From: Escherichia coli
Lineage (GTDB): Bacteria > Pseudomonadota > Gammaproteobacteria > Enterobacterales > Enterobacteriaceae
Length of the DNA: 64,000 nt
Assembly: GCF_030013595.1 (NCBI RefSeq)
Contig: NZ_CP122768.1
Direction: 5' to 3' (one strand)
In this document: piece after piece, positions 52,307 through 55,333 of the stretch
How positions within the stretch are numbered: the stretch's first letter is position 1
Layout: each line of letters begins with the position of its first letter
Translations under genes and position numbers: made by a program
Notes under the pieces: generated by a model
What the model was told of the DNA's origin: nothing
What the model saw: the letters and a program-made list of their open reading frames with translations, nothing else
The model's database searches: none

Positions 52307-54178
52307 TTATCTACGCATGAATGCGTATTCTGATTGTGGTTGTGCGACGTAATGCCCCGGCCCGACGCATTGCAACGAGACGGCTACAACCTCTTCACCA
52401 CGCAGATGAATATTGCTGGGAAGATCGTCCGACAGCAGTACACGCTGCGGTCGTTGTCGGGACGGTTCAGCGACCGGAACTGCCGCCAGTAATTTACGCG
52501 TATAAGGATGCTGCGGGTTTTCGAAGACCGCGCGCCGTGGACCAATTTCAACAATTTGTCCGAGAGACATCACCGCCACACGATGACTAATCCGCTCTAC
52601 CACGGCCATATCGTGGGAGATAAACAGATACGCAATGCCGAAATCACGCTGGAGATCGAGCAACAAGTTGATAATCTGCCCGCGAATAGAAACATCCAGC
52701 GCCGAGACGGCTTCGTCGGCAATGATCACTTTTGGATTCAATGCCAACGCGCGAGCAATGCAGATGCGCTGGCGCTGACCGCCGGAAAACTCATGCGGGT
52801 AACGCCAGGCATGTTCAGGTAACAGGCCCACGCGCTCCAGCAACCACGCAACGCGGGCAGCCGCTTCTTTACCTGGCAATAAACCGTGTACGCGCAGCGG
52901 TTCGATAATCGAATCACCGATGGTCTGACGTGGGTCCAGCGAAGCGTAAGGGTCCTGAAAAATAAACTGAATATCGCGGCGCAATGCCTGAAGTTTACCG
53001 GATGACAAGGTATCGATTCGCTGACCGTTAAAGATAATTTCGCCGCCCTGCGATTCGACCAGGCGCAGCAACGCCCGCCCGGTAGTGGATTTACCGCTGC
53101 CAGACTCGCCCACCAGCGATAGCGTTTCGCCAGGCCAGAGATCAAAACTGACTTTCTCAACGGCATGCACTTCCCGCGTTACGCGATTCAACAAACCGCT
53201 GCGCAAAGGGAAACGGGTGACCAGATTACGCACCCGTAAAATAGGTTCGCCATCCACCACCGTTTTCTGCTCGATGGGGGGTTCCTGTTTCGCTGGATGT
53301 TCAAGCGATATCAATGGGAAACGTCGGGGATAATCTAACCCTTTCATCGCACCAAGTTGCGGAACAGCAGCTAACAGCGCACGGGTGTAAGGATGTTGCG
53401 GTGCATGAAAAATCTGTTCGACGCTACCCGTTTCCACCGCCTCGCCCTGATACATCACCAGTACCCGATCGGCAATCTCTGCCACCACGCCCATATCGTG
53501 AGTGATAAAGATAACGCCCATCGACATCTCTTTTTGCAATACTTTGATTAATTGCAGGATCTGCGCCTGAATAGTGACATCCAGCGCGGTGGTTGGCTCA
53601 TCGGCAATCAGCACCGCCGGGCGGCATGACAGTGCCATCGCAATCATCACTCGCTGGCGCATCCCGCCAGAGAGTTGATGCGGATAACGTGAAAGAATGG
53701 TTTGTGCCTCCGGAATGCGTACCTGATCCAGCATCCGCTTCGCCTCGACCATTGCTTCTTCACGACTGGCGTTTTGATGCAGACGAATAGATTCAGCAAT
53801 CTGTTCACCCACAGTAAATACCGGGTTCAGCGATGTCATCGGCTCCTGAAATATCATCGCCATATCCGCACCGCGCACATGGCGCATTTGTGCAGCGCTC
53901 TGCTCGATAAGTTCAATCACTTCGCGACTGCGCCTCCGCAACAGCATTTTATCGCACTGTACTAAACCGCCCGCCTGTTCCAACAGACGCATCAATGCCA
54001 GCGCAGTCACTGACTTACCGGAGCCGGATTCGCCAACAATTGCCAGCGTCTCACCGCGTTGCAGGCTAAAAGAGAGATTGCGGACCGCAGCTATTTTCTG
54101 CTGGTCCTGCATAAAGGCAATATTCAGATTTTCAACCGCCAGCACATCACCGGCATCAAGTTCATCACTGTGTGGCAA
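52307..54178 (-). CDS. gsiA: Glutathione ABC transporter ATP-binding protein GsiA (two ABC domains)
   Basis: ORF 52307..54286; the start matching GsiA (M)[21 protein letters not shown] is TTG at 54176-54178, overlapping the iaaA stop by 14 nt; start codon is uncertain. Confidence 0.9.
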
Positions 54179-55130
54179 CGGTGTCCCCTTTTTCACGGTA
54201 GATACCGGTGGTTGGCGTATCGCCTGCGTAGCCCCAGGCGCGATACATTCCTTCGGTGTTAAACGGTAGCGCGACATTGCCTTCATGGTCGATAGCGATT
54301 AAGCCACCGCTACCGCCAAGCGCAGGGAGTTTTTCCATTACTACCCGCTCGCAGGCTTCCGCGAGACTTAATCCGCCGTAATCCATTAACGCGGCGATGT
54401 CATATGCCGCCAGCGCGCGGATGAAGACTTCGCCCGTGCCGGTACATGAAACCGCCACACTGGCGTTATTGGCGTAGCATCCGGCCCCCACTAAGGGGCT
54501 ATCGCCAACTCGTCCGGGTAATTTATTGGTCATTCCGCCCGTGGACGTGGCTGCCGCCAGATTGCCGTCTAAATCCAACGCCACGGCCCCCACGGTGCCC
54601 ATTTTCTGTTTTTCATCCAGTGGCGCACCGCTATGGTCGAGAACCATTGCCCCTTCCTCGCGCGCTGCCAGTAGTTGTTCATAACGCAAAGGCGTGGAGA
54701 AAATCTCCGGTGAGACGCGCTCCATGCCATGAGCAAACGCAAAATTTTCTGCCCCTTCGCCAATCATCATCACATGCGGGCTTTGCTCCATCACCAGCCG
54801 GGCGGCAAGAACCGGATTACGCAGATGACTAACGCCCGCCACCGCACCGGCTTTCAGGGTGTTACCATCCATCACACAGGCGTCCAGTTCATGGGTTTCA
54901 TCACGCGTAAAGACAGCGCCAATTCCGGCGTTAAACAGTGGACACTCTTCCAACAGACGCACCGCTTCCGTCACCACATCCAGCGCACTTTCGCCCGCTT
55001 CCAGCATTTTCTGCCCGGTTTCAACAATGGCAGACAACGCCTCGATGTAGCGTAATTCCTGTTGCAGACTCATCTGCGCGCGGCTAATTGCACCTGCGCC
55101 ACCATGAATTGCAATGACTGCTTTGCCCAT
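54165..55130 (-). CDS. iaaA: Isoaspartyl peptidase / L-asparaginase IaaA
   Basis: 321-aa [43 protein letters not shown]... Confidence 0.95.
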
Positions 55131-55333
55131 AGTATTCGTCCATTAAGGGTGGCTCGCCACTTTTGCTATAAATATCAGAATTTTTATGAATTACTCATTC
55201 AATTTTTGAATATAGAAAGATGGATATGGCATGTAAAGGCAGGACCCAGCGCTACGCCCGAGGTGGCATACAGTCTGTGGCGTTTTTCTGACATAATAGG
55301 CAAATTCGATTTTGCCTCCGCAGGAGTGTTTTC

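What the first reader, a model, noticed from the sequence alone, without database searches (positions are those of the whole stretch)
54165..54178. gsiA appears to start at a TTG overlapping the iaaA stop
The only in-frame start giving the expected GsiA N-terminus (PHSDELDAG) is TTG at 54176-54178, 14 nt inside the 3' end of iaaA. This implies translational coupling within the iaaA-gsiABCD operon, or a start-codon polymorphism relative to reference. Minor, but it affects annotation.
Basis: seen in the sequence. Interest (0 to 1): 0.15.

Follow-up and report, generated by a model that had tools for sequence, protein, structure and literature searches.

The report
gsiA's normal TTG start inside iaaA
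The glutathione-transporter gene gsiA does begin at a TTG codon 14 bases before the end of the upstream gene iaaA, but this is exactly how the E. coli K-12 reference is already annotated, so the finding is correct and ordinary.

Summary
On the minus strand, an in-frame TTG at 54178-54176 lies 14 nt before the end of iaaA, whose TGA stop is at 54167-54165. An AAGGGG Shine-Dalgarno sequence sits 6 nt upstream of the TTG.

It is not a polymorphism. K-12 MG1655 RefSeq annotates gsiA (b0829) from the same TTG with the same 14-nt overlap. The 61-nt junction is identical in 5129 of 5425 complete E. coli genomes. No genome exactly matches an ATG or GTG version.

Across Enterobacteriaceae the homologous codon is always start-capable: TTG, GTG or ATG. 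It always follows a purine-rich SD-like motif (negligible predicted pairing in Enterobacter sp. Bisph1). In three lineages an in-frame stop lies 5-6 codons upstream. The other in-frame candidates in E. coli are not conserved as start codons.

The overlap is specific to Escherichia and Citrobacter. The other genera examined that keep iaaA end it before the gsiA start (TAA inside the gsiA SD in most, TAG in lignolyticus), leaving a 5-13 nt gap. In E. coli that TAA is AAA, which extends IaaA by 8 residues into gsiA.

Translational coupling is plausible but untested. Published in vitro (INRI-seq) and in vivo (Ribo-RET) start-site profiling and an N-terminomics table (TRAINSPOTTER) show no signal for this start.

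Verdict: already known, low interest.

The parts
54176..54178 (-). gsiA start codon TTG (UUG, read as fMet)
   Evidence: In frame with the 623-aa GsiA. It is the same codon as the K-12 RefSeq start at 867520 and the PGAP start in the near-identical strain HCP5S3_I2. The homologous codon is TTG, GTG or ATG in 13 lineages.
54185..54190 (-). Shine-Dalgarno sequence AAGGGG for gsiA, lying inside iaaA codons
   Evidence: Best anti-SD duplex of all in-frame candidates, at -7.8 kcal/mol, with a 6-nt spacer ACACCG. AAGGRG-type motifs occupy the same place in the other genera.
54165..54167 (-). iaaA stop codon TGA
   Evidence: End of the 321-aa IaaA ORF. The NCBIfam IaaA equivalog aligns 1-321 of 321.
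54165..54178 (-). 14-nt region translated in two frames (iaaA codons for V-A-T-Q-stop; gsiA codons for M-P-H-S-D)
   Evidence: Read directly from the sequence. The same overlap is annotated in K-12 and in every E. coli record inspected. One strain has 11 nt instead.
54168..54191 (-). 8-codon C-terminal extension of IaaA (KGDTVATQ), beginning at AAA 54191..54189 where most other genera have the TAA stop
   Evidence: Alignment of junctions: GAATAAGGRG in Salmonella, Lelliottia, Leclercia and L090, versus GAAAAAGGGG in E. coli, E. albertii and Citrobacter. IaaA is 312-315 aa there versus 321 aa here.
52307..54178 (-). gsiA coding sequence (623 aa plus stop)
   Evidence: NCBIfam GsiA equivalog NF007613 scores 1372 bits (cut-off 1077) and aligns 1-623 of 623 from the TTG codon.
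54165..55130 (-). iaaA coding sequence (321 aa plus stop)
   Evidence: NCBIfam NF007589 beta-aspartyl-peptidase scores 714 bits (cut-off 567). Annotated as iaaA.
55209..55237 (-). Only sigma-70-like promoter match in 53900-55400, upstream of iaaA (TTTACA-17-TATATT)
   Evidence: Consensus scan only. One site was found, against 1.1 expected in shuffles, so it is a weak hint and not evidence of function. No promoter-like site lies between the iaaA start and the gsiA start.

Best explanation
gsiA is translated from the UUG at 54178-54176 (minus strand). An AAGGGG Shine-Dalgarno sequence 6 nt upstream selects this codon. Both the SD and the start codon lie inside the last 26 nt of iaaA, which is the first gene of the iaaA-gsiABCD operon.

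This is the standard E. coli arrangement and is identical to the K-12 reference annotation.

The 14-nt overlap is an evolutionary by-product. In most related genera iaaA ends at a TAA that sits inside the gsiA SD, 10-13 nt before the gsiA start. In the Escherichia and Citrobacter sequences that TAA is AAA, so IaaA runs on for 8 (or 9) more codons to the next in-frame TGA, which falls within gsiA codons 4-5.

How ribosomes reach the UUG is inferred, not shown. The most likely route is ordinary SD-directed initiation. Some contribution is likely from ribosomes that translate iaaA through the site and terminate 8 nt past the UUG, which would be partial translational coupling.
For: Shown:
- The sequence and frames are as described.
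- The same TTG start and the same overlap are annotated in K-12 and in PGAP records.
- The 61-nt junction is exact in 5129 of 5425 complete genomes. The ATG- and GTG-substituted versions are exact in none. All four sampled variant strains keep TTG.
- The homologous codon is TTG in E. coli, E. albertii, E. fergusonii, two Citrobacter species and L091. It is GTG in Salmonella, Lelliottia, Leclercia, [Enterobacter] lignolyticus and L090. It is ATG in Enterobacter sp. Bisph1. A purine-rich SD-like motif precedes it in each, with predicted anti-SD pairing of -6.9 to -12.0 kcal/mol in all but Enterobacter sp. Bisph1 (-1.7).
- Lelliottia, L090 and L091 have an in-frame stop 5-6 codons upstream with no other start codon in between.
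- E. coli codon 12 (GTG) is GTA or GTT in five lineages. Codon 23 (ATG) is not Met in any genus outside E. coli and E. albertii.
- Codons 2-11 vary mostly at third positions ([7,4,10] variable sites by codon position), like the downstream coding region.
- The NCBIfam GsiA model aligns from residue 1. The 36-codon upstream extension adds no score.
- JGI-sourced orthologues are written with a literal V at position 1, which reflects the GTG start.
- The literature describes the gsi genes as operonic with iaaA (PMC10355420).
Against: No direct experimental evidence for this start was found.
- INRI-seq Table S2 gives 0 reads in all five replicates and FALSE for gsiA at 867520. The same table lists the Ribo-RET peak as 0 and FALSE (PMC9825163).
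- The TRAINSPOTTER N-terminomics table lists the IaaA N-terminus, and its next entry is b0835. No GsiA entry appears (PMC13245402).
- These negatives are weak. INRI-seq misses about 30% of annotated starts and Ribo-RET about 82%.
- ABC ATPase paralogues begin aligning only at residue 12-13, so the first 11 residues are a GsiA-specific leader.
Confidence: 0.88

Rival explanations
1. Obligate translational coupling. The UUG is not recognised on its own. GsiA is made only by ribosomes that have just translated iaaA, either by termination-reinitiation with back-scanning over 11 nt or by unfolding of a local RNA structure.
For: The start lies inside iaaA, and the stop is 8 nt past the UUG. UUG is a weak initiator. 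An isolated -30..+150 gsiA fragment gave no initiation signal in vitro, while the gsiB, gsiC and gsiD fragments did (PMC9825163). The E. coli MFE fold places the SD, UUG and stop inside a long imperfect stem (-39.1 kcal/mol, z = -1.89) whose 5' arm is iaaA coding sequence.
Against: The SD is strong, at -7.8 kcal/mol. E. fergusonii uses the same UUG and a TAAGGAG SD with no iaaA upstream. The stem is not conserved across genera: consensus -5.4 kcal/mol with no covariation. The fold z-score is modest, with 7 of 200 shuffles folding as well. iaaA's own ATG start was also missed by INRI-seq, so a zero there is not diagnostic. Reporter studies summarised in PMC12548453 find that coupling falls with longer overlaps and is absent at -25 nt.
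Confidence: 0.2
2. The true start is downstream, at GTG 54145 (codon 12) or ATG 54112 (codon 23). This would give a protein that begins where the paralogous ABC ATPases begin. The TTG would then be an annotation convention.
For: Paralogue models (YejF, DppD, OppD, SapD) align only from residue 12-13. No experimental signal exists at the TTG. One gene caller produced an MLAVENL... product (P0016).
Against: Codon 12 is GTA or GTT in C. werkmanii, Salmonella, Lelliottia, L090 and L091. Codon 23 is His, Glu, Gln, Pro, Leu or Ser outside E. coli and E. albertii. There is no SD before either codon (-3.0 and +0.4 kcal/mol). The PHS-x-x-L/I-D peptide upstream is conserved, with changes mostly at third codon positions, in lineages where that stretch encodes nothing else.
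Confidence: 0.05
3. The true start is upstream in the open frame, at GTG 54196 (-6 codons) or ATG 54277/54286 (-33/-36 codons). This would give an N-terminally extended GsiA.
For: The gsiA frame is open for 41 codons upstream in E. coli and several genera. Some gene callers chose the -6 GTG (P0019, P0024) or longer forms (P0118). The mechanical ORF list starts at ATG 54286.
Against: None of these codons is conserved. E. albertii and both Citrobacter species lack the -6 GTG, and E. albertii lacks both ATGs. Lelliottia, L090 and L091 have in-frame stops at -5 or -6. Anti-SD pairing is weak, at -1.5 to -3.3 kcal/mol. The extension adds no score to the GsiA family model.
Confidence: 0.04
4. The TTG is a strain-specific start-codon polymorphism relative to a reference that uses ATG.
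For: None found.
Against: K-12 MG1655 has the identical sequence and annotates the same TTG. 5129 of 5425 complete genomes are identical over 61 nt, and none exactly matches an ATG or GTG version.
Confidence: 0.01

Closest known systems
E. coli K-12 MG1655 gsiA (b0829, NP_415350.2), annotated 867520..869391, with iaaA (b0828) ending at 867533
   Same: Identical start codon (TTG), SD, stop codon and 14-nt overlap. The 61 nt around the junction are 100% identical.
   Different: The window has Asp instead of Asn at GsiA residue 11, a common allele. It also has a private Tyr538Ser change further into the gene.
iaaA-gsiA junction of Salmonella enterica, Lelliottia, Leclercia and related Enterobacteriaceae
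   Same: Same gene order, same conserved (M)PHS... N-terminus, and an SD-like motif just before a non-ATG start.
   Different: The start is GTG rather than TTG. iaaA stops at a TAA embedded in the SD (GAATAAGGRG), leaving a 10-13 nt gap instead of an overlap. IaaA is 312-313 aa rather than 321 aa.
Short co-directional gene overlaps with translational coupling (-4 NTGA and -1 TGATG/TAATG pairs; review PMC12548453, Huber et al. PMC6728339 and PMC10666635)
   Same: Co-oriented neighbours in one operon. The SD of the downstream gene lies inside the upstream gene. The upstream stop is within a ribosome footprint of the downstream start.
   Different: The spacing is -14 nt, not one of the enriched motifs (-4, -1, -8). 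The start is UUG. Dependence of gsiA translation on iaaA translation has not been measured.

Membership tests
GsiA, glutathione ABC transporter ATP-binding protein (NCBIfam NF007613 equivalog) | Whole-protein score above the curated cut-off | tested here: met
   1372 bits against a cut-off of 1077.
GsiA, glutathione ABC transporter ATP-binding protein (NCBIfam NF007613 equivalog) | End-to-end alignment starting at the proposed first residue | tested here: met
   Residues 1-623 align to model positions 1-623. When the 659-aa ORF is used, the match starts at residue 37, which is the TTG codon.
GsiA, glutathione ABC transporter ATP-binding protein (NCBIfam NF007613 equivalog) | Operon context iaaA-gsiA-gsiB(-gsiC-gsiD) | tested here: met
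   The near-identical strain and K-12 annotate iaaA, gsiA and gsiB in this order; K-12 also annotates gsiC and gsiD.
GsiA, glutathione ABC transporter ATP-binding protein (NCBIfam NF007613 equivalog) | Transport function (glutathione or GSSG import) | not testable with these tools
   Literature only. PMC11719327 reports that Gsi imports GSSG.
UUG-initiated bacterial gene | In-frame TTG preceded by an SD at functional spacing | tested here: met
   AAGGGG, 6-nt spacer, -7.8 kcal/mol, the best of all in-frame candidates.
UUG-initiated bacterial gene | Start-capable codon conserved at the homologous position, with no alternative start available in some orthologues | tested here: met
   TTG, GTG or ATG in 13 lineages. 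In-frame stops at -5 or -6 codons in three of them.
UUG-initiated bacterial gene | Experimentally mapped initiation site or protein N-terminus | tested here: inconclusive
   No signal in INRI-seq or Ribo-RET, and no entry in the N-terminomics table. These methods miss many true starts.
Translationally coupled overlapping gene pair | Co-directional, co-transcribed, with no promoter or terminator between the genes | tested here: met
   Same strand. No promoter-like site falls between the iaaA start and the gsiA start, though this is a consensus scan only. Described as operonic in PMC10355420.
Translationally coupled overlapping gene pair | Upstream stop within a few to about 25 nt of the downstream start | tested here: met
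   -14 nt spacing. This is within the range where reporters still show reduced coupling.
Translationally coupled overlapping gene pair | Downstream translation depends on upstream translation | not testable with these tools
   Needs a premature-stop or reporter experiment. The indirect hints point both ways.

The most novel reading that the evidence does not exclude
The consistent use of a weak start codon (UUG or GUG in 12 of 13 lineages) placed against the end of iaaA may be selected. On this reading GsiA synthesis in E. coli is set largely by iaaA translation, which would be strong coupling. That would explain why the isolated gsiA initiation region is silent in vitro. The TAA-to-AAA change would then have rewired the junction from 'stop inside the SD' to 'start before the stop'.
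Probability: 0.15. Interest if true: 0.2.

Novelty: already known. Interest (0 to 1): 0.06.

Why it matters
It matters only for annotation hygiene. Mechanical ORF callers that take the first ATG give a 659-aa product, and others pick a GTG six codons upstream. The conserved and reference-supported start is the TTG, giving a 623-aa protein.

The comparative result is a tidy textbook example but not a new kind of biology. It shows the start-codon position fixed while the codon itself varies among TTG, GTG and ATG. It also shows the overlap created by loss of the iaaA stop codon.

Tried and rejected
1. RNA-structure occlusion of the start. The E. coli sequence folds into a long stem around the SD, UUG and stop. 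An 11-genus alignment gives only a -5.4 kcal/mol consensus with no covariation. I rejected it as a conserved feature.

2. Direct experimental support. I searched the supplements of INRI-seq (which include Ribo-RET values) and of TRAINSPOTTER N-terminomics. There is no signal for gsiA. The Ribo-RET preprint and the eLife anti-SD paper have no supplements held as text. The original Suzuki 2005 yliABCD paper (PMC1196167) is not held.

3. The genome-contig scan with GsiA peptides was swamped by ABC ATPases from distant taxa. It gave only two useful enterobacterial loci. I obtained the other junctions through the protein search and exact-protein contig look-ups.

4. Literature searches for 'gsiA' together with start codon, UUG or coupling found nothing specific.

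5. Programmed frameshifting on the A5G4 run to make an IaaA-GsiA fusion. I considered it because 940-aa fused ORFs exist. Those come from a 1-nt deletion in the A-run in draft assemblies. None of 5420 complete genomes exactly matches that 66-mer. I did not pursue it further.

Full report
**Observation**

The two genes lie on the minus strand. iaaA runs from 55130 to 54165 (321 aa) and ends ...GTT GCC ACA CAG TGA, with the TGA at 54167..54165. The gsiA frame reads ...ACA CCG TTG CCA CAC AGT GAT GAA..., with the TTG at 54178..54176. Translated from this TTG, the ORF gives (M)[21 protein letters not shown]... and a 623-aa protein ending at 52307.

The word 'only' needs qualifying. The frame is open further upstream, with in-frame GTG at 54196 and ATG at 54277 and 54286. 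Downstream there are in-frame GTG at 54145 and ATG at 54112. Among all these candidates the TTG has by far the best Shine-Dalgarno pairing. AAGGGG at 54190..54185 gives -7.8 kcal/mol with the 16S 3' end and has a 6-nt spacer. The other ATG/GTG candidates give -3.3 kcal/mol or weaker.

**Comparison with the reference**

A 601-nt query across the junction hits 5425 of 5426 complete E. coli genomes. It is 100% identical to strain HCP5S3_I2. In that strain PGAP annotates iaaA and gsiA with a 14-nt overlap.

In K-12 MG1655 (NC_000913.3), iaaA b0828 is 866568..867533 and gsiA b0829 is 867520..869391. The base at 867520 begins the same TTG in the same sequence context. So the accepted reference start is this TTG, not a downstream ATG.

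At population level, the native 61-mer centred on the TTG is exact in 5129 of 5425 genomes. The same 61-mer with ATG or GTG substituted is exact in none. Four sampled variant genomes all keep TTG. One of them, strain 23CRST011, has a synonymous CAC-to-CAT change in gsiA that creates a TAG in the iaaA frame. This shortens the overlap to 11 nt.

**Is the TTG the real start? Comparative evidence**

I collected iaaA-gsiA junctions from other Enterobacteriaceae. The codon homologous to the TTG is distributed as follows:
- TTG in E. coli, E. albertii, E. fergusonii, Citrobacter werkmanii, C. farmeri and one unnamed metagenomic relative (L091).
- GTG in Salmonella enterica, Lelliottia amnigena, Leclercia, [Enterobacter] lignolyticus and another unnamed relative (L090).
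- ATG in Enterobacter sp. Bisph1.

In each case a purine-rich SD-like motif lies just upstream. Examples are TAAGGAG, TAAGGGGG, CCAGGAG and AAAGGGG; the motif in Enterobacter sp. Bisph1 pairs only weakly with the anti-SD (-1.7 kcal/mol).

Several further points support the TTG:
- In Lelliottia, L090 and L091 an in-frame stop lies 5-6 codons upstream with no other start codon in between. There this codon is the only possible start that keeps the conserved PHS... N-terminus.
- The E. coli alternatives are not conserved. The -6 GTG is absent in E. albertii and Citrobacter. The -33 and -36 ATGs are absent in E. albertii. Codon 12 is GTA or GTT in five lineages. Codon 23 is not Met in any genus outside E. 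coli and E. albertii.
- Codons 2-11 show the third-position-dominated variation of a translated region ([7,4,10] variable sites by codon position). This holds in lineages where that stretch encodes nothing else.
- JGI-sourced orthologues are even stored with a literal V as their first residue, reflecting the GTG start.
- The NCBIfam GsiA equivalog (623 positions) aligns 1-623 from the TTG codon at 1372 bits. The 36-codon upstream extension contributes nothing.

**Origin of the overlap**

The overlap is specific to the Escherichia and Citrobacter sequences. Elsewhere IaaA is 312-315 aa and ends ...GIYRE-TAA. That TAA is embedded in the gsiA SD (GAATAAGGRG), and a 10-13 nt gap precedes the gsiA start (5 nt in lignolyticus, where the stop is TAG).

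In E. coli, E. albertii and Citrobacter the corresponding triplet is AAA (GAAAAAGGGG). IaaA therefore continues for 8 codons (KGDTVATQ; 9 in C. werkmanii) to the next in-frame TGA, which lies inside gsiA codons 4-5. The simplest reading is loss of the iaaA stop codon by a single T-to-A change. This is an inference from the alignment. I did not determine whether it happened once or twice.

E. fergusonii lacks iaaA at this locus altogether. It still starts gsiA at TTG behind a TAAGGAG SD.

**Mechanism**

Both the start site and the SD are well supported. How ribosomes reach the start is inferred.

Arguments for coupling:
- Both genes are on one transcript. No promoter-like match lies between them, and one lies upstream of iaaA, although this comes from a consensus scan only. 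The literature describes the genes as operonic.
- Every ribosome finishing iaaA passes over the SD and UUG and terminates 8 nt beyond the UUG. Some termination-reinitiation or structure-unfolding coupling is therefore plausible.

Arguments against obligate coupling:
- The SD is strong.
- E. fergusonii uses the same signals as a first cistron.
- Reporter studies reviewed in PMC12548453 found that coupling efficiency drops as overlaps lengthen from -4 to -25 nt.

An E. coli-specific predicted stem encloses the SD, UUG and stop (-39.1 kcal/mol, z = -1.89). It is not conserved across genera: the consensus is -5.4 kcal/mol with no covariation.

**Experimental record**

I found no direct mapping of this start.
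- INRI-seq, which uses isolated -30..+150 fragments translated in vitro, lists gsiA at 867520 with zero reads in five replicates. gsiB, gsiC and gsiD were detected.
- The TRAINSPOTTER N-terminomics table contains the IaaA N-terminus ([16 protein letters not shown]), and its next entry is b0835 (PMC13245402).

These are weak negatives. INRI-seq confirms about 70% of annotated starts and Ribo-RET about 18%. iaaA's own ATG start was also missed by INRI-seq.

**Verdict**

It is already the reference annotation, so it is neither a polymorphism nor a novelty. Coupling remains a reasonable but untested side hypothesis. Interest is low.

Noticed in passing
window 56177-56180 (+ strand, moeA): The window has AAAA where its nearest complete genome and K-12 have AAA. 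This frameshifts moeA into two ORFs, 55334..56206 and 56088..56570, instead of one 411-aa protein. No complete E. coli genome of 5426 matches the 67-mer exactly; the best is 98.5%. It is either a private mutation or a homopolymer sequencing error.
   Followed up: partly
window 52565-52567 (- strand, gsiA codon 538): The codon is TCT (Ser) where the nearest genome and K-12 have TAT (Tyr), in the VAVMYLGQIVE segment of the second ABC domain. No exact 67-mer match exists in 5426 complete genomes.
   Followed up: partly
L092 1524-1570 (E. coli draft GCA_014163245.1); proteins P0004-P0006, P0008, P0018: Some draft assemblies encode a single 900-940 aa IaaA-GsiA fusion. In L092 the cause is loss of one A from the A5 run just before the SD (GAAAAGGGG). 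This puts iaaA in frame with gsiA through the TTG, which is then read as Leu. None of 5420 complete genomes exactly matches that 66-mer.
   Followed up: partly
L086 (E. fergusonii GCA_048109445.1) 1067-1301: iaaA is absent. moeA is followed by about 230 nt and then gsiA, which starts at TTG behind a TAAGGAG SD. This GsiA is only 82% identical to the window's, which is lower than Salmonella or Citrobacter (85-87%).
   Followed up: no
L093 (E. coli 23CRST011) 93-103: A CAC-to-CAT change, synonymous in gsiA, creates a TAG in the iaaA frame. IaaA is one residue shorter and the overlap is 11 nt instead of 14.
   Followed up: yes
window 54179-54300 (- strand), gsiA frame upstream of the TTG: The gsiA reading frame stays open for 41 codons inside iaaA in E. 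coli, E. albertii, Citrobacter, Salmonella and Leclercia. The closing stop is at the same place (TAA within GGC TTA ATC). No conserved start codon occurs in this stretch, so it looks like a by-product of iaaA codon conservation. It is the reason naive ORF callers give 659 aa.
   Followed up: partly
window 54166-54193 (+ strand): The terminator scan flags an antisense hairpin plus T-run (CACTGTGTGGCAACGGTG TCCCCTTTTT) directly opposite the junction. The T-run is simply the complement of the A5G4 stretch of the SD, so this is probably coincidental.
   Followed up: no
literature (PMC11719327): A 2024 study reports that GsiABCD imports glutathione disulfide (GSSG) rather than reduced glutathione, which enters via Opp. 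The product name 'glutathione ABC transporter' may therefore need refinement.
   Followed up: no
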